A stretch of 44,975 nt of DNA from a virus. The notes under the pieces were generated by a model. That model did not search any database, was not told where the DNA came from, and saw only the letters and a list, made by a program, of their open reading frames with translations. The position numbers were made by a program, and so were the translations under genes. Numbering within the stretch: the first letter of the stretch is position 1; each line of letters opens with the position of its first letter. Location of the stretch: UHGV virus genome UHGV-0285350; one strand, given 5' to 3'. This document shows positions 4,581 through 42,931 of this stretch, in pieces.

Positions 4581-4583
4581 TTA

Positions 4584-18546: not shown

Positions 18547-18589
18547 ATATTATTTTACCGATCGGAACAAAACAGAGTCGGTATGCATT

Positions 18590-19585: not shown

Positions 19586-19589
19586 TGAG

Positions 19590-20282
19590 GTGGATCAAAA
19601 AATGAAAGAACGCGGGATGATTTTTAACGATGAGATGGTCAGGGCCATCCTCGAAGGAAGGAAGACGCAGACTCGCCGACCTGTAAAAAATGTCAGGGCC
19701 GATAACTGCCTGGTTATCCGTAAACCGACAAAGAAACGCAATGGTGTCTATACCCACGTTATGGATGCACCTGAACATGGTTTATGCCCGTTCGGTAACG
19801 TTGGTGATCGCATATGGGTCCGTGAGGCGTGGGCGATATTAGGCAATGAGGATGGTTGCAGTGTGGACTGGAACGACAACCTTTGTCGTGGCGATGAGAA
19901 GAACGCAGCAAGGATTTATCGGGCCAGTTGTGAGCAAAAGCCGGGTGATTACGGCTTGTGGTCGATACCCGATGATGCCGACTGGAAACCTCACACTGTG
20001 AATGAAAAATTTGATGGCGGGTGGTGTCCATCAATTCACATGCCGCGCTGGGCATCGCGCATTTTGCTGGAAATTACCGACGTGCGTGTGGAACGGCTGC
20101 GTGATATGAGCGAGGCAGATGCTAAAGCAGAAGGCGCATCTCCGGCGATGTACAAAATTACGCCGCCGGAAGCTGTTTATCGCGTTGGTTTTGGTGATAT
20201 CTGGCGCAGTATTTACGGGCAGGATAACTGGCTATCTAACCCGTGGGTATGGGTAATCGAGTTTAAGCGCGTTCAGGAATAA
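19590..20282 (+). CDS. ASCH/PUA-like domain protein (tentative) with Cys-containing insertion
   Basis: N-terminal MIFNDEMVRAILEGRKTQTRR resembles the ASCH GxKxxExR motif; C-terminal ...ILLEITDVRVERLRDMSEADAKAEG resembles the conserved ASCH C-terminal strand; assignment by motif recall only. Confidence 0.45.
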   Translation: MDQKMKERGMIFNDEMVRAILEGRKTQTRRPVKNVRADNCLVIRKPTKKRNGVYTHVMDAPEHGLCPFGNVGDRIWVREAWAILGNEDGCSVDWNDNLCRGDEKNAARIYRASCEQKPGDYGLWSIPDDADWKPHTVNEKFDGGWCPSIHMPRWASRILLEITDVRVERLRDMSEADAKAEGASPAMYKITPPEAVYRVGFGDIWRSIYGQDNWLSNPWVWVIEFKRVQE

Positions 20283-20285
20283 ACC

Positions 20286-21164
20286 GTGAGTATGCATCAA
20301 GTTGTCAGCTTTTCAGGTGGACGAACATCGGCTTATCTCGTTCATCTGATGGAAGCACAGCGAAAAGCTGGCGCTAGCGTCCATTTCATTTTTATGGATA
20401 CCGGCTGTGAACATCCTCTGACGTATCGCTTTATTCGTGAGGTTGTGAAGTTCTGGAACGTACCGCTAACGGTGTTGCAGGTCGATATAAATCCAGAACT
20501 TGGGCAGCCAAATGGTTATACGGAATGGGAACCAAAGGATATTCAGACGCGAATGCCGGTGCTTAAACCGTTTATGGACATGGTTAAAAAGTACGGTACG
20601 CCATACATCGGCGGCGCGTTCTGCACTGACAGATTAAAACTCACCCCCTTCACAAAATACTGCGATGACCATTTCGGACGAGGGAATTACATCACATGGC
20701 TGGGTATTCGTGCAGACGAACCTCGTAGGCTGAAACCAAAATCGGGCGTCCGGTATCTTGCCGAGCTATCTGATTTTGATAAGTCGGATGTTATCCGGTG
20801 GTGGCATAAACAACCTTTTGATTTGCAAATCCCGGAGCATCTCGGGAACTGTATTTTCTGCATCAAAAAGTCCACGCAAAAACTGGGGCTTGCATGTAAA
20901 GACGAACCTGGTCTGATGCGGGTTTTTAATGAACTGGTTACAGGCAAACACGTCAGGGATGGTCATCGCAGAACAGGTAAAGACGTTATGTACCGTGGTC
21001 ACCTGACGCTTGACGGGATTGCCAGAATGTATGCCGACAGCGACTACAGAAATTTGTATCAGGCGATGGTGCAGGCCAAGCGGTTTGATACTGGTTCGTG
21101 TTCCGAATCATGTGAAATCTGGGGTGACCAATTGGAGTTGAAATTCGAAGAGGTAGTGGTATGA
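20286..21164 (+). CDS. PAPS-reductase-family PP-loop protein with C-terminal Cys cluster
   Basis: VVSFSGGRTSAYL is the PP-loop (SGGxxS) of the PAPS reductase / adenine-nucleotide alpha-hydrolase family; cysteines GNCIFCIKK and CSESCEIW suggest a metal or Fe-S site. Confidence 0.75.
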   Translation: MSMHQVVSFSGGRTSAYLVHLMEAQRKAGASVHFIFMDTGCEHPLTYRFIREVVKFWNVPLTVLQVDINPELGQPNGYTEWEPKDIQTRMPVLKPFMDMVKKYGTPYIGGAFCTDRLKLTPFTKYCDDHFGRGNYITWLGIRADEPRRLKPKSGVRYLAELSDFDKSDVIRWWHKQPFDLQIPEHLGNCIFCIKKSTQKLGLACKDEPGLMRVFNELVTGKHVRDGHRRTGKDVMYRGHLTLDGIARMYADSDYRNLYQAMVQAKRFDTGSCSESCEIWGDQLELKFEEVVV

Positions 21165-21640
21165 CAAACAAAATTGACTATCAAAAACTTCGTGAAATCG
21201 CTGAAAAAACAAAAATTGCTGGTGAAGCACCTGTAATGCCTTTCGATCAGCGAATTAATGCGCTTAACGATTTTATGAAGCACTTTTCGCCAGATATCGC
21301 GTTGGCATTGTTGGATGAAGTTAAACGCCTAGAAGACACAAATATTGATTCTATATGCCGAATTGCAGAGATGGAGACGCGGGAAATAAAACCAGCAAAA
21401 GGCGAAGTTCTTGTCGTTGTATCTGGTTTTACTGGTTGCGGAAAAAGCGCCATTGCCGGGGAAATAGAAATCGCGATGAAGGCTATTGGTGTACCGGTTC
21501 AGTGGACTAATGGCGATGCAGAAAAGCGCATGACAGGAGCTGACTGGCTGACAGCAATTGAGATGTACAAACCAACAGTGCGCATCGTTGAAGTTAATGT
21601 GCCACGCGTCCCTGGCATTCGCATCAAAGGAGGTGAGTAA
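21161..21640 (+). CDS. hypothetical small P-loop protein
   Basis: VVVSGFTGCGKSAIA matches Walker A GxxxxGK[ST]; only 159 aa. Confidence 0.45.
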   Translation: MTNKIDYQKLREIAEKTKIAGEAPVMPFDQRINALNDFMKHFSPDIALALLDEVKRLEDTNIDSICRIAEMETREIKPAKGEVLVVVSGFTGCGKSAIAGEIEIAMKAIGVPVQWTNGDAEKRMTGADWLTAIEMYKPTVRIVEVNVPRVPGIRIKGGE

Positions 21641-21816
21641 TGCGTGTGGCATGTATCGGCTTGTTACCGTACCCGACTCGTTTTTGGGCTTCTGCGCTAA
21701 TTGCAAAGCCACATGTACTGATGGCTGACAACATCATCCCGGCACCAAATCGCCGCCATACCGGTATTGCAGCGGCACGACGTGCAGCAAAGAAACGCAG
21801 GAGAGCAAAGCGATGA
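21640..21816 (+). CDS. possible small Arg/Lys-rich protein (58 aa)
   Basis: ATG overlaps upstream stop (TAATG) and is preceded by AAAGGAGGTGA SD; stop overlaps next ATG; not in track (<60 aa). Confidence 0.45.
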   Translation: MRVACIGLLPYPTRFWASALIAKPHVLMADNIIPAPNRRHTGIAAARRAAKKRRRAKR

Positions 21817-21995
21817 AAAACCGTAAGGCAAAAATTCTGTTAGCTCGCAGAAACGGTGTTGGGGTCTGGCGATGGTTGAGGATTAGTAACAGACGAGTGA
21901 GGTTGACGGGGTGTTGCGGGGTGATGTTGCACAGCTGTTGCAAAAAGCCCAGCGCGGCGCAAAACCGCTGGAAGAATCACACTAACGCAAAGTAA
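21813..21995 (+). CDS. possible small Cys-rich basic protein (60 aa)
   Basis: ATGA overlap with upstream ORF; CCGVMLHSCC cluster. Confidence 0.35.
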   Translation: MKNRKAKILLARRNGVGVWRWLRISNRRVRLTGCCGVMLHSCCKKPSAAQNRWKNHTNAK

Positions 21996-22012
21996 TTAAA
22001 TAATAACCAATA

Positions 22013-22038
22013 ACAGACCAAAACATATGTTTTGGTCT
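22013..22038. promoter_or_regulatory. perfect 26-bp palindrome CAGACCAAAACAT|ATGTTTTGGTCTG, followed by a second CCAAAA-N6-TTTTGG repeat
   Basis: Read from sequence; exact dyad symmetry around AT|AT; sits between the early operon and the gemA region. Confidence 0.45.
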
Positions 22039-22062
22039 GCCAAAAGTAGTGTTTTGGTCATT

Positions 22063-22341
22063 ATGAAGATTGAACAAGTCGGAATGGCAGCTTTCAGGCA
22101 ACAGGCTGAAAGCGGTGGCGTGGATGAGTTCGTCGTGCAGCGGTTCGGTGGTGTGTATCACCTCTTCGCTGTGAATCGCCGCGCCGGGGTGTCCTATTTT
22201 CTACAGGAACGCCGTGGCGATTACAAGACGTGGCTGTCTCTTGACCGTGCCGCCGCGTTCCTGTCGGGGATTGGTGTTTCACGTTTTACCGTGCGTTTTG
22301 AGGATAACAAACATGCTGAAAAAGATGATCGGGGCCATTAA
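22063..22341 (+). CDS. hypothetical protein
   Basis: ORF in track (22027..22341); start ambiguous (ATG 22027 inside palindrome, or ATG 22063); no clear SD for either. Confidence 0.35.
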   Translation: MKIEQVGMAAFRQQAESGGVDEFVVQRFGGVYHLFAVNRRAGVSYFLQERRGDYKTWLSLDRAAAFLSGIGVSRFTVRFEDNKHAEKDDRGH

Positions 22342-22708
22342 AGCCGGTCAGGCATATCTGGGGTGGGATGATGCTCTTTATCGCCAGACACTGGTCCGCC
22401 TGACAGGTAAAACCAGCACCACACGCTGCAATCTCGATGAACTGCGCATCATCCGGGAATACATGCACGAACAGGGATTCCCGCGCAAGGCACCCGCTGG
22501 TAAAGGTCGCCGCCCTCGTGTTGCAATGAGCAGAAAATCAGTATTATCCAAAATTGAAGCGTTGCTGGCTGATGCCGGTCGTTCCTGGGCGTATGCAGAA
22601 GGACTGGCATCTCACATGTATAAGCAACATGTGATCGAATGGCTGACGGATGATCAACTGTTTGGGGTGATGGTGGCGCTGGTTAAAGATTCAAGGAGAC
22701 GTAAATGA
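22313..22708 (+). CDS. gemA: GemA-like protein (Mu gp16 / DUF1018 family)
   Basis: MLKKMIGAIKAGQAYLGWDDALYRQTLVRLTGKTSTTRCNLDELRIIREYMHEQGF matches the Mu GemA/gp16 pattern; ATG after GAGGA. Confidence 0.7.
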   Translation: MLKKMIGAIKAGQAYLGWDDALYRQTLVRLTGKTSTTRCNLDELRIIREYMHEQGFPRKAPAGKGRRPRVAMSRKSVLSKIEALLADAGRSWAYAEGLASHMYKQHVIEWLTDDQLFGVMVALVKDSRRRK

Positions 22709-23043
22709 AAAAACTGTTATTACTTATTCTGGCTTTATGTTTTACAGGGATATCCCATGCTTCTGATTCAGAGGAAGATTTGATCAAAAAAACATTACAG
22801 GGCGATTATCAGGCACAACGTAATCTGGCTTATTCATACATGAATGGCTGGGATGATATTTCAAAGGATACCATTAGAGGATGTGCTCTCAGGAAGGTTA
22901 TTCTCTTAACACAAGCCCAAGCTGACATTGGCGATTATGGAAATGAAGCCATAGATTGTCGAAAAGTGCATCCAACAGATAACCAGAAAGTATGGGAGTA
23001 TGTCAGAGGATACCTGGTGTTAATAAACGAGAATAAAAAATAA
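22705..23043 (+). CDS. hypothetical secreted protein (signal peptide), AT-rich moron-like gene
   Basis: MKKLLLLILALCFTGISHA signal peptide; local AT-richness; followed by strong terminator. Confidence 0.55.
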   Translation: MKKLLLLILALCFTGISHASDSEEDLIKKTLQGDYQAQRNLAYSYMNGWDDISKDTIRGCALRKVILLTQAQADIGDYGNEAIDCRKVHPTDNQKVWEYVRGYLVLINENKK

Positions 23044-23055
23044 TATGAACAAAAA

Positions 23056-23080
23056 CCTTCGCAAACGCGGAGGTTTTTTA
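23056..23080 (+). terminator. rho-independent terminator (ccttcgc-aaac-gcggagg then tttttt)
   Basis: Hairpin and U-run read from sequence immediately after stop of 22705..23043. Confidence 0.6.
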
Positions 23081-23084
23081 TGGT

Positions 23085-23113
23085 CTGTACAGGCGATCAT
23101 GTATGGCTATAAT
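23085..23113 (+). promoter_or_regulatory. candidate promoter for Mor/C-family gene (-10 TATAAT at 23108-23113; weak -35 CTGTAC)
   Basis: Consensus -10 hexamer about 30 nt upstream of the 23143 ATG; -35 is poor, compatible with an activator-dependent promoter. Confidence 0.35.
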
Positions 23114-23142
23114 AACAGTAAGTTACTACCGGAGACGCCATC

Positions 23143-23610
23143 ATGCAGACCTTCAGTGAAACAGATCTTCGCGATGCGCAGGCACTGCTGCCCGACTCCG
23201 TGCAGCAACTGATTAGCGTGATTGGCTTCCCCGCTCTGACCCGGTTGATTCGTTCTTTTGGTGGTGTGACGTTAAGTGGTAAAACCGGCGCACACGCCGA
23301 ACGCACCGGCGGTGTCCATGCCCTGTTACATGACGTGCTGACCGAAGACGAAATCAACAAACTGATCCGCTTTCTTGGCGGCGCACCGTTTTACATTCCC
23401 CGTTGCGATCATGCTTTACGTGCCCTGCGTAACACCCGTTTTATGGCTGATTTACAGCGGCATCTCAGGGACGGATTCTCACATCGGCAGGCGCTGGCAC
23501 AGCTTTGTCCCCGTTACGGGATTTCAGACCGGTACGCATGGCAACTGATACACCGACGACAAAAACAGACTTCGCTGAAAAGCCCCACCCAGGTGGGGCT
23601 TTTTGATTAA
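23143..23610 (+). CDS. Mor/C-family transcriptional activator of phage middle/late genes
   Basis: C-terminal HTH ...LAQLCPRYGISDRYAWQLIHRRQK typical of the Mu Mor/C family; cannot tell whether this is the Mor or the C equivalent. Confidence 0.7.
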   Translation: MQTFSETDLRDAQALLPDSVQQLISVIGFPALTRLIRSFGGVTLSGKTGAHAERTGGVHALLHDVLTEDEINKLIRFLGGAPFYIPRCDHALRALRNTRFMADLQRHLRDGFSHRQALAQLCPRYGISDRYAWQLIHRRQKQTSLKSPTQVGLFD

Positions 23611-23635
23611 TGGGCCTCAGAAAAAGGAGACACTT

Positions 23636-23914
23636 ATGACCAACTATACGGCACTTGGCGAGTATACAGCCTACTCAGAGCAGGCCAGGGATGCTGCCGG
23701 ACGCCGCTTCGCTTATATGAAAAATCTGGCCAGCCAGCTAAACCGAATGGCTGAACAACCGGATATGGTTGTTCAGGAAGAAGCGTTGCAGTGTGCCATT
23801 GCTGACATCATCGCCAGCGAAAACGAGATGCGCGCAGCGATGGAAAAGGCGAACGCCTCTGCTCCGCTTTGTAATAAACCTCTTATTACGCCGGATTCTC
23901 TTTCCCGCTTCTGA
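23636..23914 (+). CDS. hypothetical protein
   Basis: ORF in track (23603..23914); start placed at ATG (MTNYTALGEY...). Confidence 0.4.
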   Translation: MTNYTALGEYTAYSEQARDAAGRRFAYMKNLASQLNRMAEQPDMVVQEEALQCAIADIIASENEMRAAMEKANASAPLCNKPLITPDSLSRF

Positions 23915-24096
23915 TTTATCACCCCGCCGCCGCGGGGTGCTGAACTCCCCCAGCAGTACCCACCACACCAGACCGTTTACCCTGTCCACTCAGACCACAA
24001 GGCACCTTAAGGGATAGCGCCCTGCAAAAGGCTTATGTGCCTTTGACAGGGTGTTATTTACGGGCCGTCAGTGGCTCAGATTTACAGGAGAAACTC

Positions 24097-24489
24097 ATGT
24101 CTGAACCCTTATCAGGCGGCGGAGCTGTGGCAGTCACCATCGGTGGTGCCAGTGTGTTTGGCCTTCTCACCAATACCGATTTCGGGGTCGTGGTGGGCGC
24201 GTTTGCCGGGGCGCTTTTTGTTGTCACGCAGCAGAAAGAAATCCCGGTCTGGCGAATGGCTATCCACCTGCTCGTCGCGTTTGTGGTTGGCGTTCTGGGG
24301 GCTGGCGTGGCTGCGTCACTGATGCAGTGGCTGACCCACTACAACGACAAGCCACTCGATGCATTGTGTGCGGTCGGTGTCTCGGCGTTATCCATCAAGA
24401 TACTGACCTTTCTTTATCAACAGGAAATTTCATCGCTGTTCGGCCTGTTTTCCAGACTGCGCGGCGGAGGGGGTGGAAATGGAAAGTAG
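24097..24489 (+). CDS. holin-like membrane protein (3-4 TM, Gly-rich tail)
   Basis: ATG 7 nt after GGAG; hydrophobic segments; first gene of lysis cassette. Confidence 0.5.
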   Translation: MSEPLSGGGAVAVTIGGASVFGLLTNTDFGVVVGAFAGALFVVTQQKEIPVWRMAIHLLVAFVVGVLGAGVAASLMQWLTHYNDKPLDALCAVGVSALSIKILTFLYQQEISSLFGLFSRLRGGGGGNGK

Positions 24490-24775
24490 CCTTGCCGGTA
24501 TCGTGAACGTCTGGCTGTGTCTCGCCATTGTGCTGGGGTTGTTTGTGTATCGCCGCCACGGTGCGGCGCATGAGCCGATGATTACCTGGCTGGCGTACTG
24601 GCTGATGCTCGGCTACATCATCATCCCGTTCCGCTGGCTGTCCGGTACATACACGCACTCCAGCTGGCTGGTTGTGGCGCTGAATCTGGTTTTCTGTGCG
24701 CTTATCGTGTGGGCGCACGGGAATTTGTCAAAAATCCTTTCGTTACTGAGGCATCCACATGAAATCAAAAGATGA
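24479..24775 (+). CDS. lysis-associated membrane protein (holin/antiholin-like, 2-3 TM)
   Basis: ATG after GGAGGGGGTGG; hydrophobic segments; overlaps neighbours. Confidence 0.5.
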   Translation: MESSLAGIVNVWLCLAIVLGLFVYRRHGAAHEPMITWLAYWLMLGYIIIPFRWLSGTYTHSSWLVVALNLVFCALIVWAHGNLSKILSLLRHPHEIKR

Positions 24776-25304
24776 CATTTTTGATGAAGTCCTGGGCAAA
24801 GAAGGCGGTTACGTCAATCACCCGGATGATAAGGGCGGCCCGACCAAATGGGGCATTACGGAAAAAGTCGCCCGTGCCCACGGATACCGTGGCGATATGC
24901 GTGAGTTAACCCGCGAACAGGCGCTGGACATCCTTGAAGCCGATTACTGGTATGGCCCGCGATTTGACCAGGTAGCAGCGTTATCCCCTGATATTGCCGC
25001 AGAGCTGTGTGATACCGGTGTGAATATGGGGCCATCCGTGGCGTCCAGAATGCTCCAACGCTGGCTGAACGTTTTCAACCTGCGCGGCAGGCTGTACCCG
25101 GATATGGACGCAGACGGACGCATCGGACCTCGTACCATCAGCGCATTGCGCGCCTTCCTGAATAATCGCGGTCAGGACGGTGAACGGGTGATGTTGACAG
25201 CCCTGAACTGCACGCAGGGTAACCGCTATCTGGAGCTGGCAGAGAAACGCGAGGCTAACGAATCGTTTGTTTATGGCTGGCTGAAGGAGCGCGTGGTGGT
25301 ATGA
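24759..25304 (+). CDS. endolysin (GH108-type N-domain with EGGY motif plus peptidoglycan-binding C-domain)
   Basis: LGKEGGYVNHPDDKGGPTKWGIT matches the GH108 signature; C-terminal region resembles a PG-binding domain. Confidence 0.8.
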   Translation: MKSKDDIFDEVLGKEGGYVNHPDDKGGPTKWGITEKVARAHGYRGDMRELTREQALDILEADYWYGPRFDQVAALSPDIAAELCDTGVNMGPSVASRMLQRWLNVFNLRGRLYPDMDADGRIGPRTISALRAFLNNRGQDGERVMLTALNCTQGNRYLELAEKREANESFVYGWLKERVVV

Positions 25305-25483
25305 CGCGTCAGCGCTGGACCCACAGAACGCCACGTAAAGCCGCCCGCTGTGTTCTGGCCCTGTTTCTGGTGATGTTGCTTCCGGTGGGATGCACAGACA
25401 TTAACAGAGCAGGACAGCTGTTAGACGCGGCAGCGCAGGTCTGCCGGATTATTGACGGCATCCGGCAGTGTTCACAGAGCTGA
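25301..25483 (+). CDS. outer-membrane lipoprotein, o-spanin (Rz1)-like
   Basis: Basic N-terminus, hydrophobic core and lipobox LLPVGC; ATGA overlap with endolysin stop. Confidence 0.55.
   Translation: MTRQRWTHRTPRKAARCVLALFLVMLLPVGCTDINRAGQLLDAAAQVCRIIDGIRQCSQS
25424..25483 (+). repeat. 60-bp direct repeat, copy 1 (3' end of o-spanin-like gene)
   Basis: gacgcggcagcgcaggtctgccggattattgacggcatccggcagtgttcacagagctga; 56/60 identical to copy 2. Confidence 0.7.
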
Positions 25484-25515
25484 ACATCTGCCAGTTGTTT
25501 CACTAAGGAGAAGTT

Positions 25516-25704
25516 ATGGCATCACCAGTTATGAAATATTTCGCTTATGAACATCTTCCGGCTTCGTTACAGGAAGTGAGTAAACCGATTGGCGATCTGG
25601 CAAGAAAAATGGATGAGTCTCTGCCAGACGGGCCGGAAAAGTCAGTCGGGTTACGTAAATTGCTGGAAGCAAAAGATGCTTTAGTCCGGGCGAAACTGGG
25701 TTAA
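25516..25704 (+). CDS. hypothetical small protein (62 aa) located between the two 60-bp repeat copies
   Basis: ATG after AGGAGAAG; no motif recognised. Confidence 0.45.
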   Translation: MASPVMKYFAYEHLPASLQEVSKPIGDLARKMDESLPDGPEKSVGLRKLLEAKDALVRAKLG

Positions 25705-25730
25705 TGACTTAACAAGGCTACCAATTTTTT

Positions 25731-25790
25731 GACGCGGTAGCGCAGGTCTGCCGGATTATTGACGGTATCCGGCAGTGTTCGCAGAACTGA
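25731..25790 (+). repeat. 60-bp direct repeat, copy 2
   Basis: gacgcggtagcgcaggtctgccggattattgacggtatccggcagtgttcgcagaactga; contains internal hairpin ctgccggat...atccggcag. Confidence 0.7.
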
Positions 25791-25810
25791 TTTTTTGAAG
25801 GTCTGACACA

Positions 25811-26017
25811 GTGAGCATTATCAGATTTACAGAATACAGAGGTTCAGGAGGTGCTGGCGCTGTCATGGTGCTCGCTGAACGCATCACCCATTTTTACCGT
25901 CAGTACGGTACACATGATGGCACGGTCATTGAACTGGATACCGGGAAAAACGTGTTCGTTCTTGAAAATCCCGACGAAGTTCAGCGCAGGATTGAACAGG
26001 CTCAGAAGGACACTTAA
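25811..26017 (+). CDS. hypothetical protein
   Basis: GTG start; stop overlaps next ATG (TAATG). Confidence 0.45.
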   Translation: MSIIRFTEYRGSGGAGAVMVLAERITHFYRQYGTHDGTVIELDTGKNVFVLENPDEVQRRIEQAQKDT

Positions 26018-35571: not shown

Positions 35572-35785
35572 GGCGGCTCCCGGGATGAAGTTCCCGATGG
35601 AGGATAACGCCCGGAAATACATCACCACGGAAGCGGTGACCGTTGAGAACACCGCTTATTACCGACACGCCGTTCAGGACGGTGACCTGATTCTGGTAAC
35701 TGAAGAGCCTGAAACGGCAGAACAGGATACCGGACCAGAAAAAACGAAGGTGAAGAAAGAGAAACAGGTGGATTCCGATGAGTGA
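35552..35785 (+). CDS. small protein preceding sheath (Mu gp38 position)
   Basis: 77 aa, overlaps neighbours. Confidence 0.5.
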   Translation: MTSMKVKAAPGMKFPMEDNARKYITTEAVTVENTAYYRHAVQDGDLILVTEEPETAEQDTGPEKTKVKKEKQVDSDE

Positions 35786-37199
35786 AATTCAGTTTGACAC
35801 CATTCAGAGTGGTATCCGTAAGCCCGGTGTGCATTTTGAGTTTAATACCCGGCTGGCCGTTAACACGCTGCCGGGTAATGAACAGCGTGTTCTGGTGATT
35901 GGCCCGATGCTGTCAGGCGGCACCGCCACGCCCCTGAATGCCGTCTCCGTGTATTCCGAAGACGAAGCGGATTTGTATTTCGGGGCCGGTTCTCTGGCCG
36001 CAGCAATGGCACGCGCGGCCATTAACGCCAACAGCTATCTGCAACTGGATGTTATCGGTATTGCAGACAGTGGCGCAGGAAAGGCGGCAACCGGCGCAGT
36101 TACCGTCAGTGGCACGGCAACCAGCAGCGGCACGCTGTCGGTATGGGTTGCCGGTGAGCAGGTCACGGTGGATGTGGATACCGGTGATGAACCAGCAAAA
36201 ATCATTCCGGCACTGGTGACGGCAATGACGCAGACGCCATCGCTTCTGGTTACGGGGGAATACAAATCGGAAACCTCTCAGCTGACGGTGACCACCCGGA
36301 CCAAAGGAGCCTGGGGGAATGGCATTACCCTGTCAGCGTCCACCACGGCAGGCGGTCTGACCGTGAGCACCACGGCAATGGCGAACGGCGAAATGGACCC
36401 GGATATTCAGCCCGCACTGGATGCGGTCTTTGCTGCCGGTCACAACATTCTGATTTGTCCGTTCAGTACCACGCCAGCCCTTGCCGCCCTGAAGCAGCAT
36501 CTGGAGAAAACCGGGAACGCGATGGAACAGCGTGGCGCGATTGGCTGTGCGGGCTGGACGGGTAGTCTCGGAAACGGGATCACCCTGGCAGCCGGTGTGA
36601 ACAGCGGGCGCGTGTCCGTCCCCTGGTATCGCGGCTCCGTGAAGCTGCCAGCGGTGCTGGCCGCCATCTACGGCGCTGTGATGGCGGGCGAGGAAGACCC
36701 GGCGCGTCCGCTGAACTCGCTGGCACTGTCCGGGCTGGATGTGGTCGCCATGTCACAGCGTGAAAGCCGTAACGAGCAGGAAAACGCCCTGCATAATGGC
36801 CTGACGCCGGTTGAGGTTGGCCCGGGTAACACGGTACAGATTGTGCGTGCGGTCAGTACGTACACGGTTAACGCACAGGGCGTGACTGACGTCTCGTTAC
36901 TGGATATCACGTCCATCAGAACGCTGGACTACACCCGCAAGGCGTGCCGCGAACGCATCAGCCTTCGCTTCCCGCGCGAAAAACTCAGCACCCGTACTAT
37001 CGCAAAAGTGGAAAGCGAACTGTATGACGTGCTGATTAAGCTGGAGGAAGCGGAGATTCTGGAGAACGTGGAAGCGAACAAGGCAAAGCTGCGCGTTCAG
37101 CGAAACGGGAAAGATGCAAACCGTCTCGACTGCGTGGTTCCGGCGGATGTGGTTAACGGCCTGCATGTGTTTGCCGGTCGCATCGACATGATTTTGTAA
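35778..37199 (+). CDS. tail sheath protein
   Basis: 473 aa, followed by small tube gene; position and size typical of contractile-tail sheath. Confidence 0.8.
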   Translation: MSEIQFDTIQSGIRKPGVHFEFNTRLAVNTLPGNEQRVLVIGPMLSGGTATPLNAVSVYSEDEADLYFGAGSLAAAMARAAINANSYLQLDVIGIADSGAGKAATGAVTVSGTATSSGTLSVWVAGEQVTVDVDTGDEPAKIIPALVTAMTQTPSLLVTGEYKSETSQLTVTTRTKGAWGNGITLSASTTAGGLTVSTTAMANGEMDPDIQPALDAVFAAGHNILICPFSTTPALAALKQHLEKTGNAMEQRGAIGCAGWTGSLGNGITLAAGVNSGRVSVPWYRGSVKLPAVLAAIYGAVMAGEEDPARPLNSLALSGLDVVAMSQRESRNEQENALHNGLTPVEVGPGNTVQIVRAVSTYTVNAQGVTDVSLLDITSIRTLDYTRKACRERISLRFPREKLSTRTIAKVESELYDVLIKLEEAEILENVEANKAKLRVQRNGKDANRLDCVVPADVVNGLHVFAGRIDMIL

Positions 37200-37211: not shown

Positions 37212-37586
37212 ATGTCCATTAAAGAATATGTCGGCTCGATTGTGCTGGAGGTGGACAGCCAGGAAATCGAGATCACCGACTTCGATGTTCAGATCAACAC
37301 CGGGCGAAAGCTGGTCAAGACCATGAACAAAACCGGCAGGGCCAAAGGCTTTGCCCGTGGCATTGCCACTTACGATATTTCTGTTTCGGCGGTTATCCCT
37401 GATACCAACGAGCCGGACTGGGAAAATCTGGAAGGTGTGAAAATCTCAATTTATCCGCTCAGCAACAGCGGCAAGCGCACCTCCTATCTGGACTGCTTCA
37501 CAGCTGAAGTTGGTGAGAAATACACCGTCGACAGTGAAGCGAAAATTGATATCAAAATGGCTGCACTCAGGAAGGTGACAGGATGA
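37212..37586 (+). CDS. tail tube protein
   Basis: 124 aa immediately after sheath. Confidence 0.75.
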   Translation: MSIKEYVGSIVLEVDSQEIEITDFDVQINTGRKLVKTMNKTGRAKGFARGIATYDISVSAVIPDTNEPDWENLEGVKISIYPLSNSGKRTSYLDCFTAEVGEKYTVDSEAKIDIKMAALRKVTG

Positions 37587-37966
37587 CTTTGATTAATACA
37601 CAGACCGGCGAACTGTCTGATGGCGTGGTATTTAACGGCACCGTTCATAAAAACTTTGAGCTGCGTCTGCCGGTCATGCGTGATAACGGACAGGCACTGG
37701 AAGAAACTGAAGAACGCTTTCAGACGGTGGACGGCTTCGCGGCGGATTATTACTACCGCTGTGCGGTGATGGCGGCAACGCTGGTCCGTCTGGGGGATAT
37801 TCCGCAGGAAGAACTGACGGCGGAGCTGTTGCACGACAACATGACGCCGGACGATTTTAATATTCTGCTGGCATCACGCAACGTCCTGAAGGTAAAGCGG
37901 AACGGCGGGAATCCCGGCTCGCCGGACTCCGGCTCGCAGTCCTCATCCTCGGGCGCTACGGAATAA
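37583..37966 (+). CDS. tail assembly chaperone
   Basis: 127 aa between tube and tape measure; -1 frame stays open across its 3' end (see 37981..38139). Confidence 0.65.
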   Translation: MTLINTQTGELSDGVVFNGTVHKNFELRLPVMRDNGQALEETEERFQTVDGFAADYYYRCAVMAATLVRLGDIPQEELTAELLHDNMTPDDFNILLASRNVLKVKRNGGNPGSPDSGSQSSSSGATE

Positions 37967-37980
37967 CCGAAGAGCAAATC

Positions 37981-38139
37981 ATGACCATGAGCCGTCCCGA
38001 GCTGGACGGCTGGCTTGCCGCCGTTGACAGACTGAACGGCGGCGGCTCAGGAAGGAAGGACACCTCACAGACCACCCGCCAGTCATTTAAATCCCTCAGA
38101 AAGAAACGCAGAAAAGGTAAGCAGAAAAATGGCCGGTAA
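37981..38139 (+). CDS. ORF in -1 frame relative to chaperone; probable frameshift extension or small independent gene
   Basis: -1 frame is open from about 37861 to stop at 38137-38139, overlapping the chaperone stop (37966) and the tape-measure start (38129); ATG at 37981. Confidence 0.4.
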   Translation: MTMSRPELDGWLAAVDRLNGGGSGRKDTSQTTRQSFKSLRKKRRKGKQKNGR

Positions 38140-40402
38140 TTTCAAAGTTGGCATGACCCTGACTGCGAAGGACGAAGCCTCGCAGGTTCTGGAAAAGGGA
38201 CAAAAACAGGTTATCAAAGCCACCGAAGGTGTAACAAAGGCAACCCGGAAGGCAGGCGCAGAGCAGAAGCGTACCGAGCAGGAAAGCGTTAACAGCACGA
38301 AAAAGGCCGCAAAAGAGATACAGCGTGCCGCCCGTGCCCGGGAAACGCTCGGTATTCGTGCAGAACGCGAGATCCGGCGTGAAATTTATCAGACGGTTGC
38401 CAGCTATAACCGTCTGGCCCGCGCCGGTTTTGAATCTGCGCAGGAGCAGGAACGTGCCATGCAGGCCACCCGGGAAAAAGCCCGGGCACTCAAGCGTGAA
38501 CTGGATGGCGTCACTCAGGCTCAGATGAAGATGGCGAAAACGCCCGTTATCCCTGAACCGGGGCGTTTTGCCCGTGCGGCTGCATTTGGCGGGAATGCCG
38601 TGACAACAGGTGGTGGTATTGCGGCAGGTGCTGCCATTATGGCGCAGCCGGTCAAAAAGCAGATGAGCTACGAACGCCAGCTGGCAATGATGGCCAATAC
38701 CGCCTTCAGTGATGGCGGGCTGGAGGGACGCAAAGCCGGTCTTGAGCAGATGAAAAGCAGCATCCGTAACGCGGTGACCTATGGTGGCGGCACAAAAGAG
38801 GATGCAGCCGAAACACTGGATGCCCTGCTGAAAGATGGCGGTATTTCATTTGACACAGCCAGCAAGTGGCTACCTGAACTGATGAAATACGCCACGGCTT
38901 CTGGTGCATCAGCGACAGACCTGGCTAATGTGATGCTTAAGGGCAAAAAGACCTTTGGATTCCGGGATGAAGATATTTCCACTGTCCTGAATATGGCGAT
39001 TGCGGCAGGAAAAGAAGGCAGCTTTGAACTGAACGATATGGCCCGCTGGTTATCCCAACAAATGGGATCTGCGTCAGCTGCGGGAATGAAAGGCAAGGAT
39101 GATTTCGTCAAGATTCTTGCGCTGAATGAAGCCGCCGCGATCACGGCTGGTAGCAGTGATGAAGCAGGGAATAACGTGGTTAACCTGCTGGCTAAACTGA
39201 CCAGCCATGATATTGAAACTGCGGCAAAGAGCATTGATTACAACGGTAAAGGGATTGATTTTTCAGGTACGCTGACTGAAGCGCGCAAGCATGGACTGGA
39301 TCCGATAGACGCGCTTTCCAGCCTGATAGATAAAATCGTTGCCAGCGATAAACGCTATCAGGAGTTGCAAAAGAAACTGTCATCTGCCCGGAATAAAGGT
39401 GAACAGACGGCTGTTTACGATTCGATGGCAAAACTCCTTGAAGGCTTTGGTGTCGGGAAACTGGTTGCAGACCGTCAGGCGTTGATGGCGTTGTTAGCCT
39501 ACCGTAACAACCCGGAATACCGTAAGAAGGTTGAAGACGCGATTAATCAGCAACGTACCCTGCCGGAAGGCCAGCGCGCGGGGGATGTTGATTTCAGATT
39601 CATATCCGGCCTCAATGATTTTAAAACCGAACAGGCTAAAAACACACTTGAATTTTCACAAATGGACAGCGTGAAAAAGCTGGCTGATGCGTCCGGTACT
39701 GTGGCCGATGCCATAAGCTGGGCGGGTGAAAAGTTTCCGGGGCTGACCACGGCAGTGGTGGGTGCCACGACTGCGATTGAAGCGATGACCGCAGCGGCTC
39801 TGACATGGGCCGGGATCAAAATCCTGACCGGGGGTAAACCTGGTGGCAAGGCTGGCGAGGTTGTCGGTGATGTCATTGAAAACACGGTCAAAAAAGGCAA
39901 AGGATTTAAAATCCCCGGCATTGCCGGTAGCCTGCTTTCTTTCGGTGGCACCGTTACGGCACTGGCCACCGCAACCAGCCCGGAAGAAGACGCCGCCGTC
40001 GAAGGAAGCGAAGAACGCTGGAAGCGCATCCGTGCCCGATACCCCCAGGAAATCATCGACGCTGCCCGTAAAAAATACCAGCCGTGGTGGCAGTTTGGGG
40101 AAGGCTACTCCACCGAAAACGAAGAGTGGTTGAGGCGCTGGGAGGAAGACAGGAAAAAAGCCGCAGCTGATGCCCTGCCATCACCGGCGCAGGTCAACAA
40201 AGCCGCCGGAAACACAACGCCTGAATCAGCATCAACGCAACCCGGACGCATCACCCAGCCGGAATACCTCACGCACTGGGGACCACCTGCCAGTCCCATA
40301 AATTTCACCACACAACTGGTGCTTGATGGTCAGGTCGTGGCGGAAGCGGTGAATAAATACAACCTTCAGGATGGTAACAGAGGCACGGGAGGAACTTACT
40401 GA
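38129..40402 (+). CDS. tail tape measure protein
   Basis: 757 aa, Ala/Gly/Lys-rich, long helical regions, C-terminal Gly-rich segments; position after chaperone. Confidence 0.85.
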   Translation: MAGNFKVGMTLTAKDEASQVLEKGQKQVIKATEGVTKATRKAGAEQKRTEQESVNSTKKAAKEIQRAARARETLGIRAEREIRREIYQTVASYNRLARAGFESAQEQERAMQATREKARALKRELDGVTQAQMKMAKTPVIPEPGRFARAAAFGGNAVTTGGGIAAGAAIMAQPVKKQMSYERQLAMMANTAFSDGGLEGRKAGLEQMKSSIRNAVTYGGGTKEDAAETLDALLKDGGISFDTASKWLPELMKYATASGASATDLANVMLKGKKTFGFRDEDISTVLNMAIAAGKEGSFELNDMARWLSQQMGSASAAGMKGKDDFVKILALNEAAAITAGSSDEAGNNVVNLLAKLTSHDIETAAKSIDYNGKGIDFSGTLTEARKHGLDPIDALSSLIDKIVASDKRYQELQKKLSSARNKGEQTAVYDSMAKLLEGFGVGKLVADRQALMALLAYRNNPEYRKKVEDAINQQRTLPEGQRAGDVDFRFISGLNDFKTEQAKNTLEFSQMDSVKKLADASGTVADAISWAGEKFPGLTTAVVGATTAIEAMTAAALTWAGIKILTGGKPGGKAGEVVGDVIENTVKKGKGFKIPGIAGSLLSFGGTVTALATATSPEEDAAVEGSEERWKRIRARYPQEIIDAARKKYQPWWQFGEGYSTENEEWLRRWEEDRKKAAADALPSPAQVNKAAGNTTPESASTQPGRITQPEYLTHWGPPASPINFTTQLVLDGQVVAEAVNKYNLQDGNRGTGGTY

Positions 40403-41751
40403 TGGGCTGGGCTGAAAACCTGCAAAACGCCTCCTTTCGCGGTGTGCAGTTTGAGGTGCTGAATACTGACGAACAAATCAGCCGCGACCATGCGGTCTAT
40501 GAATACCCTTTTGTTGACGGGGCAGATTTGCACGACCTCGGACGCAAGGCGCGACCGTTCCGCATGACGGCGTTCCTGTGGGGCGATGACTATGAATATA
40601 AACTCGGAAAACTGACCGCCGTCCTGGATAAAGGCGGCGATGGTGAACTGATTCATCCGGTTTATGGCTCTGTGCCGTCGGTGATTGTGACCGGCTACAG
40701 CATCCGCCATGACGCAGAAAGCCCGGACAGCTGCACCATTGACATGAGTTTTCTGGAGAACCGCACCGGCAGCGCGTTGTTCAGCACCCCGTTACCGGAG
40801 CTGTTCGCGCAACAGTTGTTTGATGAACTGGATGCTTTACAGACACAGTTAAGCGAATTTTTTGACGCTGTTACGTCCCCTTTAAAGACCATTAACAGCG
40901 TGATTAAAAAAATCCAGACGGTGCGTGCCACGCTGGTGAATACCCTGCTGACGTTCAAAAGTGATTCATTCTCCACAGTCGATAATGTTGTGTCACTGGC
41001 CAGCGAACCCGGAAAGTTTATCGGCGGGCTGGCAGAGGTGCTGGAAATCCACACGTCAGATGTCGGGCACGCGGTGCCGGTGCTGGCGCGTACTGATTCC
41101 GCCACCACGACCGGACTGACCGGAGAAGACAGCGTCGCCAGTTCTGCGACCGTGATGACCTGCTGGAATGAGGTGATGGCTGATATGGATGAGCTGGTCG
41201 CGCTGCCGGTCGCACTGGTCAGCGGTGATAAAACGCCGTCTGTGGCACTTCCGCCGGATGCGTCCGTGGAAGACGTGCAGGACGTGAAAGCGGCTTATGC
41301 GGTTCTGGCGGCCTCAGAGCTGGCCAGCGTGGCAACAGCGATACTGTCCGATGAGGCCCAGTCAGAACAGCTTATACCGGCGGATATCGGGCGACTGGTC
41401 GGGGATGTGCGCACCCGCTTACAGGCAGCCATTACGCTGTTCCGTGAGCGCTATGAAGGCGAACGTGAACGGATAACCGAAACCGCATCACCGCTGGGGC
41501 TGATGTACCCGGAAATCATTCAGAGCATGAAGAACGTGGCGGCATCCGTGCAGGATGTTGGCCTGCTGGTTCTGTCACGCCGCCCACCGCTGACGCAGAA
41601 ACAGGTGCAGGCGGACAGCTGTCTGCTGTTGCTGGCGTGGCAGTGGTACGGTGATTACAGCCGTGCGGCAGAGCTGCAACGTCTGAACCCGCAGCTGCGT
41701 GACCCGAACAACATAACCGCCGGGATGGTGATTAATGCCTACGCAAAATAA
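40402..41751 (+). CDS. DNA circulation protein (Mu N-like)
   Basis: 449 aa directly after tape measure; N-terminus MGWAENLQNASFRGVQFEVL... Confidence 0.75.
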   Translation: MGWAENLQNASFRGVQFEVLNTDEQISRDHAVYEYPFVDGADLHDLGRKARPFRMTAFLWGDDYEYKLGKLTAVLDKGGDGELIHPVYGSVPSVIVTGYSIRHDAESPDSCTIDMSFLENRTGSALFSTPLPELFAQQLFDELDALQTQLSEFFDAVTSPLKTINSVIKKIQTVRATLVNTLLTFKSDSFSTVDNVVSLASEPGKFIGGLAEVLEIHTSDVGHAVPVLARTDSATTTGLTGEDSVASSATVMTCWNEVMADMDELVALPVALVSGDKTPSVALPPDASVEDVQDVKAAYAVLAASELASVATAILSDEAQSEQLIPADIGRLVGDVRTRLQAAITLFRERYEGERERITETASPLGLMYPEIIQSMKNVAASVQDVGLLVLSRRPPLTQKQVQADSCLLLLAWQWYGDYSRAAELQRLNPQLRDPNNITAGMVINAYAK

Positions 41752-42931
41752 CGAAGACAAAATCAGCCTGGTCATTGCCGGAAGGTCGCATTCTGACTGG
41801 AGCAGTTATCGTATTGACAGCGATTTCCTGAAAGCCGCCGACGGCTGGCACCTTCAGCTGGGACTGCCTGAAAAGGTGTTCCCGGCGGATATCGTCCGGG
41901 GTGCGCCGGTCCGTTTGCAGGTGGGAGACGAGACGGTGCTCAGTGGTCGCGTTGACAGCGTGCGCCGCAGTGTATCCCGTCAGAGCTGCACGCTGACCCT
42001 GTCCGGGCGTGATGATGCCGCCATCCTGGTGGACTGTGCCGCACCGGTGTTCAGCGCCAACCAGCTGACGCTGGACGAGGTCATTGACAGGATTGTCAGA
42101 CCGCTGGGGATACAGCGCATCCGCATTCAGGCATCCGGTGTGTCACGTAATGACAAAGTCGTTATTGAGCCGGGGATGCGTGCGTGGGATGCACTGGCCA
42201 AAGCTGCCGCCGGTCGCGGCTTATGGCCGTGGTTTGAGCCTGACGGGACGCTGGTTGTGGGTGGCCCTGACTACACCACCACGCCGGTGGATACGCTGAT
42301 TCTGAAGCTGAACGGCACCGGGAACAACGTGATGGAGCTGGACGATACCCGGTCCATTAACGGCTGTTTCTCCGAACTTACTGTGCTGGCCCAGAGCCAC
42401 GCCCGCCGCGCAGACAGCAAGAAACCGGTGGCCGTGGTGCCGCTGGATATCTGGAACGAGGACGGCAGCGTGCGCACATTGTCCGGGCAGGACAGCGGTA
42501 ATACGGACAGTGGCCAGACAGGCATTCATAACATGAAAGCCGTGGCCACCGACCCCACCGTGGATTATTATCGCCCGCAGATTATCACCCAGGGCGACAC
42601 CAGCAATCTGGAGCAGGTGAGCTGGCGCGCAAAAAAAATGATGAGTGATGCCCGCCTGTCGGGGCTGGATATCGTCGCACTGGTTGCAGGTCATCGCACG
42701 GCAGATGGTGTTCTGTGGCAGCCCGGCCAGCGGGTGCGGATTGTCAGCGAACTCCACGGCATTGATGCCATATTTTTCCTGATGGGGCGTGAGTTCAGCG
42801 GAGGCCGGAACGGGCAGACAACCCGGCTTCGCTTTAAGGAGGACGGCGTGTGGATACCTGACGCCTTCCCGCGCGAGAAGAAACGCCATCACCGCAGGGG
42901 CGTCGCCATTGTTAAGGTCTGGGAGAAATGA
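41735..42931 (+). CDS. baseplate hub / late-control-D-family tail protein (Mu P-like)
   Basis: 398 aa, position between N and spike. Confidence 0.75.
   Translation: MPTQNNEDKISLVIAGRSHSDWSSYRIDSDFLKAADGWHLQLGLPEKVFPADIVRGAPVRLQVGDETVLSGRVDSVRRSVSRQSCTLTLSGRDDAAILVDCAAPVFSANQLTLDEVIDRIVRPLGIQRIRIQASGVSRNDKVVIEPGMRAWDALAKAAAGRGLWPWFEPDGTLVVGGPDYTTTPVDTLILKLNGTGNNVMELDDTRSINGCFSELTVLAQSHARRADSKKPVAVVPLDIWNEDGSVRTLSGQDSGNTDSGQTGIHNMKAVATDPTVDYYRPQIITQGDTSNLEQVSWRAKKMMSDARLSGLDIVALVAGHRTADGVLWQPGQRVRIVSELHGIDAIFFLMGREFSGGRNGQTTRLRFKEDGVWIPDAFPREKKRHHRRGVAIVKVWEK

What the first reader, a model, noticed from the sequence alone, without database searches (positions are those of the whole stretch)
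37861..38139. Probable programmed -1 frameshift between tail chaperone and tape measure genes, without a canonical slippery heptamer
The -1 frame is open from about 37861 to 38139, overlapping the last about 35 codons of the chaperone and ending inside the tape-measure start. This is the conserved G/GT-type arrangement. I could not find a classical X XXY YYZ heptamer in the overlap; a GC-rich repeated segment (cggctcgccggactccggctcgc) might act as a stimulatory structure.
Basis: partly seen in the sequence, partly recalled or inferred. Interest (0 to 1): 0.45.

Follow-up and report, generated by a model that had tools for sequence, protein, structure and literature searches.

The report
Tail chaperone -1 frameshift at A_AAG
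A Mu-like prophage of E. coli and Salmonella almost certainly makes a longer version of its tail-assembly chaperone by a -1 ribosomal slip on a minimal A_AAG site. This is an ordinary phage mechanism, but public annotation misses it here.

Summary
The -1 frame is open at 37861-38139. It overlaps the last 35 codons of the tail chaperone gene (37583-37966) and ends 11 nt inside the tape-measure gene. The overlap contains no in-phase X_XXY_YYZ heptamer.

The interpretation also holds, and the slip site can be located. Every relative keeps the -1 ORF. One clade narrows the usable overlap to 46 nt, which coincides with a nearly invariant block at 37886-37931. Nucleotide variability moves from third positions of the zero frame to third positions of the -1 frame by 37932. 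That is 49 nt before the first start codon of the -1 frame (ATG 37981).

The only conserved in-phase slippery element is A_AAG at 37894-37897, in the context G_GUA_AAG_CGG. At the aligned position, distant relatives carry A_AAA_AAG_CGG (a Klebsiella phage and a Ralstonia phage) or G_GGA_AAG_CGC. The window therefore has a degenerate heptamer in which only tRNA-Lys can re-pair.

An invariant 7-bp hairpin (-10.9 kcal/mol) starts 5 nt downstream. It is a plausible stimulator but is not proven. The predicted fusion is 185 aa (105 + 80).

This is a new, unannotated member of a known kind. Interest is modest.

The parts
35778..37199 (+). Tail sheath gene (context)
   Evidence: Pfam Phage_sheath_1/1C/domII.
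37212..37586 (+). Tail tube gene (context). Its stop overlaps the chaperone ATG (ATGA).
   Evidence: phrog_185 tail tube, E 8.6e-35; ORF list.
37583..37966 (+). Tail assembly chaperone gene, the zero-frame 'G-like' product of 127 aa
   Evidence: phrog_508 tail assembly chaperone, E 1.1e-40. Weak collinear similarity to Mu gp41.
37861..38139 (+). Stop-free stretch of the -1 frame (92 codons plus stop)
   Evidence: Kept in every relative that shares the -1 arrangement.
37886..37931 (+). Nearly invariant nucleotide block containing the slip site and the hairpin. Both frames are coding here.
   Evidence: Alignments. Mean pairwise variability is 0.04-0.12 per phase, against 0.19-0.55 in the flanks.
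37891..37897 (+). Proposed shift site G_GUA_AAG. The effective element is the tetramer A_AAG at 37894-37897, Lys105 of the chaperone.
   Evidence: It is the only in-phase A_AAG in the gene and the only conserved in-phase Z_ZZN in the overlap. K105-R106 are invariant in the family. Aligned heptamers in relatives are A_AAA_AAG (L023, L065, L066, L053, L069) and G_GGA_AAG (L048). L050/L051 restrict the overlap to 46 nt that starts at this site.
37898..37902 (+). 5-nt spacer CGGAA. CGG is the zero-frame codon after the slip, and GCG (Ala) is the first -1 frame codon.
   Evidence: Sequence. Ala is the first residue after the junction in all 17 reconstructed fusions.
37903..37924 (+). Candidate stimulatory hairpin: 5' arm CGGCGGG (37903-09), loop AAUCCCGG (37910-17), 3' arm CUCGCCG (37918-24)
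   Evidence: It appears in the minimum-free-energy and centroid folds, with dG -10.9 kcal/mol. Six of 7 pairs are invariant in 12 representatives, and both L050 substitutions fall in the loop. There is no covariation, and 9.5% of random positions have an equally stable hairpin.
37897..38139 (+). -1 frame coding for the 80-aa 'T-like' C-terminal extension (AERRESRLAGLRLAVLILGRYGITEEQIMTMSRPELDGWLAAV...basic tail), stop included
   Evidence: The peptide is conserved across clades starting at the junction. The variability peak lies on -1-frame third positions from 37932 onward.
37981..38139 (+). Small ORF as annotated in RefSeq (52-aa hypothetical protein, phrog_3114). I read it as the 3' part of the frameshift extension.
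38129..40402 (+). Tape measure gene. Its ATG overlaps the end of the -1 ORF (ATGGCCGGTAA).
   Evidence: PF10145, E 3.2e-21; alignment.
37914..37937 (+).
   Evidence: The second copy is not conserved in L020, L021, L024-L026, L046, L048 or L050.

Best explanation
**Proposed mechanism.** A small fraction of ribosomes translating the tail chaperone gene slip one base backwards at G_GUA_AAG (37891-37897). tRNA-Lys decoding AAG (37895-97) re-pairs with AAA (37894-96). The neighbouring tRNA-Val (GUA) cannot re-pair well, so the site behaves as a Z_ZZN tetramer rather than a tandem-slip heptamer.

Translation then continues in the -1 frame from GCG (37897) to TAA (38137-39). The product is a 185-aa fusion: chaperone residues 1-105 plus an 80-aa helical, C-terminally basic 'T-like' domain. 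Ribosomes that do not slip make the 127-aa chaperone.

A conserved 7-bp GC hairpin starts 5 nt after the tetramer (37903-37924). It probably pauses the ribosome and raises the slip frequency to the low-percent range.

By analogy with lambda gpG/gpGT and Mu gp41 with its frameshift product, the two proteins would coat the tape measure protein, and the T domain would recruit tube subunits.

**Shown here:**
- the anatomy of the locus
- conservation of the -1 ORF
- selection on the -1 frame upstream of any start codon
- homology of the site to canonical heptamers in relatives

**Inferred:**
- that slippage actually occurs, and how often
- the role of the hairpin
- the assembly function
For: 1. Synteny is that of a Mu-like contractile tail, with the chaperone between the tube and tape-measure genes.
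2. The -1 ORF is present in all relatives down to about 34-38% identity. In L050/L051 the overlap shrinks to 46 nt that begins at the GGT AAA G position. In the Klebsiella-phage clade the -1 frame opens with a TAA immediately before AAA AAA GCG.
3. Phase test: pairwise variability peaks at zero-frame position 3 upstream (0.55). It peaks at -1-frame position 3 in 37932-37966 (0.49), 37967-37980 (0.42) and 37981-38128 (0.41). The -1 frame has no ATG/GTG/TTG before 37981.
4. Reconstructed fusions align from the first residue after the junction (K|A-E/Q/D/A-R...) across four clades.
5. Aligned shift sites are A_AAA_AAG_CGG (Klebsiella phage ST405-OXA48phi1.1 and relatives; Ralstonia phage YO374_1 and relatives), G_GGA_AAG_CGC (L048), and G_GUA_AAG or G_GCA_AAG elsewhere. 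K105-R106 are invariant.
6. A_AAG is the only conserved in-phase Z_ZZN in the overlap.
7. Literature: A_AAG is by far the most shift-prone tetramer in E. coli. It reaches up to 5.6% with a downstream pseudoknot placed 5 nt away and is near background without a stimulator (PMC4066793). A_AAG-only sites are used by IS1222 (G_CGA_AAG) and occur in Bacillus cdd. Tail-chaperone frameshifts of -1, -2 or +1 are conserved in tailed phages, and Mu uses -2 (PMC5009743; the Mu record annotation).
8. The hairpin is invariant at 6 of 7 pairs with a 5-nt spacing.
Against: - There is no experimental evidence for the fusion protein.
- The exact 185-aa sequence is absent from a 15-billion-protein collection, and RefSeq annotates two separate hypothetical proteins. 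This shows only that nobody has annotated the fusion.
- The P-site codon GUA or GCA cannot re-pair in -1, so efficiency is expected to be low.
- The hairpin has no covariation support. Its stability is not unusual: 9.5% of random positions match it, and shuffle z-scores are about 0. Its invariance could come from dual coding alone.
- An ATG with a weak SD-like GAAGAG 6 nt upstream exists at 37981, so independent translation of the 52-aa ORF is not excluded as an additional route.
Confidence: 0.8

Rival explanations
1. There is no frameshift. The 52-aa ORF (37981-38139) is an independent small gene, translated from its own ATG or by re-initiation after the chaperone stop 14 nt upstream. The upstream open -1 frame is incidental.
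For: RefSeq and many other records annotate it as a separate gene. phrog_3114 models it as a stand-alone family. A Met is conserved at or near this position in all clades. A weak SD-like GAAGAG lies 6 nt upstream.
Against: The -1-frame peptide upstream of the ATG (RLAGLRLAVLILGRYGITEEQI) is conserved across clades whose nucleotides differ. Variability there follows -1-frame codon phase. No start codon can reach it. In the Klebsiella-phage clade the AAGGA motif is only 1 nt from the ATG. L048 lacks the first of the two Met codons. The SD-like string is simply the conserved Glu-Glu codons.
Confidence: 0.08
2. A -1 frameshift does occur, but at another place or by another mechanism inside the conserved block. 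Examples are P-site slippage at AAU_CCC (U_CCC) or GGC_GGG, or slippage of peptidyl-tRNA-Lys driven by a hungry rare CGG codon rather than by the hairpin.
For: The whole block 37886-37931 is invariant, so conservation alone cannot single out one tetramer. CGG is a rare E. coli codon (my own knowledge). In the main clade alone, the 46-nt bracket from L050 still contains the other candidates.
Against: U_CCC and C_GGG are not Z_ZZN motifs. Relatives place canonical heptamers exactly at the A_AAG position. L050 changes CCC GGC to CCA GCC, and L048 and L050 use the common CGC instead of CGG. Fusions align from the Ala that follows Lys105.
Confidence: 0.09
3. Chance overlap or a decaying prophage remnant, with no functional recoding.
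For: Open -1 runs of 92 or more codons do occur elsewhere in the window (4 of 613 runs).
Against: The arrangement is conserved in 56 complete E. coli genomes and in many viral contigs with an intact tail module. Purifying selection acts on the -1 frame.
Confidence: 0.02

Closest known systems
Lambda gpG/gpGT and the conserved tail-assembly-chaperone frameshift of tailed phages (Levin 1993; Xu, Hendrix and Duda 2004; summarised in PMC5009743)
   Same: The gene lies between the tail tube and tape measure genes. The second ORF overlaps the 3' end of the first in the -1 frame, and its conserved part has no start codon of its own. The fusion is expected to be a low-abundance product carrying a small C-terminal domain.
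   Different: Lambda uses the tandem-slip heptamer G_GGA_AAG. The window has G_GUA_AAG, in which only the Lys tRNA can re-pair. There is no detectable sequence similarity to lambda G or T.
Phage Mu gp41 and its frameshift product (Mu_41/Mu_56; verified -2 shift, PMID 15469818 as cited in the GenBank record)
   Same: Both belong to a Mu-like contractile tail module (sheath, tube, chaperone, tape measure, gpN, gpP). Similarity to gp41 is weak but collinear (hhalign E 7.8e-4; Pfam Gp41_Mu best E 0.03 in 4 of 12 members).
   Different: Mu shifts by -2 at CGG_GGG_CGA into the +1 frame. The window shifts by -1 at A_AAG. Sequence membership in Gp41_Mu is below threshold.
A_AAG tetramer -1 frameshift sites of IS elements (IS1222 G_CGA_AAG; synthetic Z_ZZN series on the IS3 pseudoknot; PMC4066793, PMC5009743)
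   Same: The minimal motif A_AAG is preceded by a codon that cannot re-pair. A structured element starts 5 nt downstream. The host has a single tRNA-Lys that is shift-prone on AAG.
   Different: The context is a phage tail chaperone, not a transposase. The downstream element looks like a simple 7-bp hairpin, not a demonstrated pseudoknot.
E. coli dnaX A_AAA_AAG
   Same: Distant relatives of this gene (Klebsiella phage ST405-OXA48phi1.1, Ralstonia phage YO374_1) carry exactly A_AAA_AAG at the aligned site, followed by CGG.
   Different: The window keeps only the 3' half of that heptamer. No suitably spaced upstream SD-like stimulator was found. The AAGG at 37889-92 is only 1 nt from the tetramer, and by my own knowledge that spacing would not favour a -1 shift.

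Membership tests
G/GT-type tail assembly chaperone programmed frameshift | Gene located between the major tail (tube) gene and the tape measure gene | tested here: met
   Tube 37212-37586 (phrog_185), chaperone 37583-37966 (phrog_508), tape measure 38129-40402 (PF10145).
G/GT-type tail assembly chaperone programmed frameshift | Second ORF overlaps the 3' end of the first in another frame, and its conserved coding part cannot be reached from a start codon | tested here: met
   -1 frame open at 37861-38139; first start codon at 37981. -1-frame codon-phase signature from 37932. Peptide conserved from the junction onward.
G/GT-type tail assembly chaperone programmed frameshift | Canonical X_XXY_YYZ slippery heptamer in the overlap | tested here: not met
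   None in any phase in 37855-37966. Canonical heptamers are present at the aligned site in relatives L023, L065, L066, L053, L069 and L048.
G/GT-type tail assembly chaperone programmed frameshift | Arrangement conserved among relatives independently of sequence similarity | tested here: met
   All relatives from 100% down to 34% identity keep the -1 ORF. One 30% relative (L067) has the T-like domain in the +1/-2 frame.
G/GT-type tail assembly chaperone programmed frameshift | Fusion protein made at a low fixed ratio and required for tail assembly | not testable with these tools
   Needs a reporter assay, western blot or mass spectrometry, plus genetics.
Z_ZZN (A_AAG) tetramer -1 frameshift signal | In-phase A_AAG within the productive overlap | tested here: met
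   A_AAG at 37894-97 is the only one in the gene. The other in-phase tetramers are T_TTT at 37855, which runs straight into the -1 stop, and G_GGC at 37951, which is not conserved.
Z_ZZN (A_AAG) tetramer -1 frameshift signal | Downstream stimulatory structure about 5-8 nt from the motif | tested here: inconclusive
   A 7-bp hairpin with a 5-nt spacer and dG -10.9; 6 of 7 pairs invariant; no covariation; 9.5% of random sites do as well.
Mu gp41 family (Pfam PF23746 Gp41_Mu) | Sequence match above the family threshold | tested here: not met
   No Pfam hit for the window protein. Best E 0.03 among 12 family members. hhalign against Mu gp41 gives probability 25%, E 7.8e-4.
Mu gp41 family (Pfam PF23746 Gp41_Mu) | -2 frameshift into the +1 frame, as verified for Mu | tested here: not met
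   The conserved extension is in the -1 frame. The +1 frame is short and closed in L026.
PHROG 508 tail assembly chaperone / PHROG 3114 | Profile match | tested here: met
   phrog_508 E 1.1e-40 for the chaperone; phrog_3114 E 9e-19 for the extension.

The most novel reading that the evidence does not exclude
This chaperone family is a natural evolutionary series. A canonical tandem-slip heptamer (A_AAA_AAG or G_GGA_AAG) has decayed to a single-tRNA A_AAG site, and the loss is compensated by an invariant hairpin inside a 46-nt dual-coding block. One distant member has moved the same T domain to the +1 frame, with a UCG_UUU_CGA site as the candidate. The family would then show how phages tune the G:GT ratio by trading motif strength against stimulator strength, and how the direction of the frameshift can switch within one protein family.
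Probability: 0.35. Interest if true: 0.45.

Novelty: new member of a known kind. Interest (0 to 1): 0.3.

Why it matters
It fixes an annotation error that recurs widely. In E. coli, Salmonella and related enterobacteria, more than 1000 contigs list the chaperone and a 52-aa 'hypothetical protein' as two separate genes, and none has the fusion.

It is also a well-bracketed natural case of a tail-chaperone frameshift that relies on the minimal A_AAG tetramer rather than a heptamer. The mechanism itself is already established, so the conceptual gain is small.

Tried and rejected
- **Canonical heptamer.** None found in any phase.
- **Other tetramers.** T_TTT at 37855 runs into the -1 stop. G_GGC at 37951 is not conserved and lies beyond the zero-frame stop of L050.
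- **H-type pseudoknot.** I considered pairing loop CCGG (37914-17) with CCGG (37929-32). I rejected it because the connecting loop is only 4 nt across a 7-bp stem, and the pairing is lost in L048 and L050.
- **Long-range helix.** A helix 37886-93 / 37945-52 proposed by RNAalifold has one apparent covariation (column 8:60). I set it aside because the two states match two clades, and the 5' arm would sit inside the ribosome at the moment of slipping.
- **Upstream SD-like AAGG.** It is only 1 nt from the tetramer and is absent in L025, so I rejected it as a -1 stimulator.
- **Transcriptional slippage.** There are only three A's in the window. It remains possible in the A8 run of the Klebsiella clade.
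- **Rfam.** No match at gathering thresholds over the whole window and nothing relevant locally.
- **Pfam and NCBIfam on the fusion and the extension.** Nothing found.
- **Wider searches.** Scans of genome contigs and metagenome contigs returned only close relatives. Alignment A2 was too diverse for pattern scanning.
- **Structure prediction.** Single-sequence AlphaFold2 of the fusion gave pLDDT 52, too low for a fold search. It suggests only a helical extension.
- **Xu et al. 2004.** The paper is not held in the library. Its content is cited through PMC5009743, PMC2628397 and the Mu GenBank record.

Full report
**Observation**

The window region 35.7-43.9 kb is a Mu-like contractile-tail module. 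In order it contains:
- sheath, 35778-37199 (Pfam sheath domains)
- tube, 37212-37586 (phrog_185)
- a 127-aa tail assembly chaperone, 37583-37966 (phrog_508, E 1e-40)
- a small ORF, 37981-38139 (phrog_3114)
- tape measure, 38129-40402 (PF10145)
- a DNA-circularisation gpN-like gene, 40402-41751
- a gpP-like baseplate hub, 41735-42931

The small ORF is in the -1 frame relative to the chaperone. That frame is stop-free from 37861 (after TAA 37858-60) to TAA 38137-39. It overlaps 106 nt (35 codons) of the chaperone and 11 nt of the tape-measure gene. The first ATG/GTG/TTG in that frame is at 37981.

The overlap has no X_XXY_YYZ heptamer in any phase. The description is therefore accurate.

A 92-codon open -1 run is uncommon here but not extraordinary. 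Only 4 of 613 such runs inside the large ORFs of the window are this long. The case rests on comparative evidence.

**Comparative evidence that the -1 frame is translated as an extension of the chaperone**

The locus is a prophage found in 56 of 5426 complete E. coli genomes at 90-99% identity. RefSeq annotates the tube, the chaperone and the 52-aa ORF as three separate hypothetical proteins. I collected relatives from viral contigs, genomes and phage records, spanning 100% down to about 34% protein identity.

All of them keep a -1 ORF bridging the chaperone end and the tape-measure start. In L050/L051 (46-48% identity) the chaperone stops early and the -1 frame opens late. That leaves only 46 nt in which a shift could be productive, equivalent to window positions ~37892-37937. 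This interval coincides with a nearly invariant nucleotide block at 37886-37931. The block persists in relatives whose flanks are heavily diverged.

A codon-phase test on 12 representative sequences gave these peaks of mean pairwise variability:

| Segment | Frame position with the most variability | Value |
|---|---|---|
| Upstream of the block | zero-frame position 3 | 0.55 |
| 37932-37966 (still inside the chaperone ORF) | -1-frame position 3 | 0.49 |
| 37967-37980 | -1-frame position 3 | 0.42 |
| 37981-38128 | -1-frame position 3 | 0.41 |

Upstream of the block, the other two positions scored 0.28 and 0.19. The -1 frame is thus the selected frame at least 49 nt before its first possible start codon.

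In line with this, the zero-frame tail after the block is low-complexity and varies in length. Examples are GSQSSSSGATE* and ALPSSPSGDAASPKTE*. In some E. coli variants the stop is lost, giving 133 aa. In contrast, the -1 peptide LAGLRLAVLILGRYGITEEQIMTMSRPELDGWLAAV is conserved.

**Locating the shift site**

Inside the bracketed interval the only conserved, in-phase Z_ZZN element is A_AAG at 37894-97. Its context is CUG AAG GUA AAG CGG, and the AAG is Lys105. It is also the only in-phase A_AAG in the whole gene. Lys105-Arg106 are invariant in the family alignment.

The decisive observation is what relatives carry at the aligned position:

| Relative(s) | Sequence at the aligned site |
|---|---|
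| Klebsiella phage ST405-OXA48phi1.1 and two related contigs | CUU AAA AAA AAG CGG, i.e. A_AAA_AAG, with the -1 frame opening at a TAA directly before it |
| Ralstonia phage YO374_1 and a relative | GCA AAA AAG CGG, again A_AAA_AAG |
| L048 | AAG GGA AAG CGC, i.e. G_GGA_AAG, the lambda heptamer |
| Remaining clades | G_GUA_AAG or G_GCA_AAG |

When the fusion is reconstructed with the junction after this Lys, all 17 sequences align from the first residue onward (K|A-[EQDA]-R...). The window's site is therefore a degenerate heptamer that keeps only the A_AAG half.

The predicted products are the 127-aa chaperone and a 185-aa fusion (105 + 80 residues). The exact fusion sequence is absent from a collection of about 15 billion proteins. 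The 52-aa ORF is recorded on more than 1000 contigs as a hypothetical protein.

**Mechanism**

In E. coli, A_AAG is by far the most shift-prone tetramer. It reached 5.6% with a pseudoknot placed 5 nt downstream and is near background without a stimulator. The best bacterial motifs are those that let the A-site tRNA re-pair cognately (PMC4066793). Natural A_AAG-only sites include IS1222 (G_CGA_AAG) and Bacillus cdd (PMC5009743). A frequency of a few percent is what a G:GT-type system needs; lambda runs at about 30:1 (PMC5009743).

In the window, 5 nt after A_AAG, a hairpin forms: CGGCGGG (37903-09), loop AAUCCCGG, CUCGCCG (37918-24). It appears in the minimum-free-energy and centroid folds and has dG -10.9 kcal/mol. 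Six of its seven pairs are invariant in 12 representatives, and the two substitutions in L050 both fall in the loop.

Position 37906 could change C to A synonymously in both frames (GGC to GGA, CGG to AGG), yet it never does. This hints at an RNA-level constraint.

The support is still weak. There is no covariation. Shuffles fold about as well (z about 0). And 9.5% of random positions in the same region have an equally stable hairpin 4-9 nt downstream. Dual coding alone could explain the invariance. I rate the hairpin's role as plausible (about 0.45). I rate the frameshift itself at about 0.85 and the A_AAG location at about 0.75-0.8.

**Rivals**

- **Independent translation of the 52-aa ORF.** This is what public annotation implies. 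A conserved Met and a weak SD-like GAAGAG exist. But this route cannot explain selection on the -1 frame upstream of the ATG. It may occur in addition to the frameshift.
- **A shift elsewhere in the block** (U_CCC, C_GGG, or slippage driven by a hungry CGG codon). The canonical heptamers at the A_AAG position in relatives argue against it. So do CGC replacing CGG in L048 and L050, and CCA GCC replacing CCC GGC in L050.
- **Chance.** This is excluded by the conservation.

**Comparison with known systems**

Functionally this is the conserved tail-assembly-chaperone frameshift of tailed phages (lambda G/GT; Xu et al. 2004, as summarised in PMC5009743 and PMC2628397). It departs from the family definition in one tested feature, the lack of a canonical heptamer.

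Its module is Mu-like, but Mu itself uses a verified -2 shift at CGG_GGG_CGA. Sequence similarity of the chaperone to Mu gp41 is only marginal, so I do not file it as a Gp41_Mu member.

The signal type matches the A_AAG tetramer sites of IS elements. Rfam, Pfam and NCBIfam have nothing for the RNA element, the fusion or the extension.

**Verdict**

The finding is real and correctly interpreted. It is a new, unannotated member of a known kind. Its value lies in annotation and in showing that tail-chaperone frameshifts can rest on the minimal A_AAG motif. Interest is 0.3.

Noticed in passing
L067:1771-1951: A 30%-identity relative of the chaperone has the T-like domain (LLALLKLGFSYTEALAMPWSEAFAYLDAV) in the +1/-2 frame, not the -1 frame. 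The overlap contains UCG_UUU_CGA, which resembles known +1-prone UUU_Y sites followed by a rare Arg codon. The frameshift direction appears to differ within one protein family, as it does in Mu.
   Followed up: partly
window 37964-37966; L015:3382-3402: In some E. coli variants (L015; proteins P0003, P0008, P0058, 133 aa) the chaperone stop TAA is changed to TCA. The zero-frame product gains 6 residues while the -1 ORF is untouched. The zero-frame tail therefore seems to be under little constraint.
   Followed up: partly
window 37893 with 37945 (alignment A3, columns 8 and 60): RNAalifold pairs 37886-93 with 37945-52 and shows U-A changing to C-G at one pair (4 and 5 sequences). The two states follow two clades, so this may be a single event. 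The helix would enclose the slip site.
   Followed up: partly
L023:2801-2812 (also L065, L066): The Klebsiella-phage clade has a run of eight A's (CTTAAAAAAAAGCGG) at the shift site. That is long enough for transcriptional slippage to contribute alongside ribosomal slippage.
   Followed up: no
window 38129-38139: The end of the -1 ORF and the start of the tape-measure gene share the string ATGGCCGGTAA (ATG GCC GGT AA / ..GGC CGG TAA). It is invariant in all close and mid-distance relatives aligned, which suggests translational coupling.
   Followed up: no
window 37583-37586: The tube stop and the chaperone start overlap (ATGA). Together with the other overlaps this makes a tightly coupled tube, chaperone, tape-measure translation unit.
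   Followed up: no
window 1-14000 and 14600-26000: The first ~14 kb carries mostly minus-strand ORFs and may be host DNA. Between ~14.6 and 26 kb the largest plus-strand ORF is 331 aa, so no Mu A-sized (~660 aa) transposase ORF is evident. The prophage may combine Mu-like head and tail genes with a different replication or integration module. No tRNA genes and no Rfam families were found in the window.
   Followed up: no
window 37981-38139: Public records (RefSeq WP_000178828.1 and more than 1000 contigs in E. coli and Salmonella) annotate this stretch as a stand-alone 52-aa hypothetical protein. PHROG 3114 ('unknown function') is probably a family of frameshift-extension fragments.
   Followed up: partly
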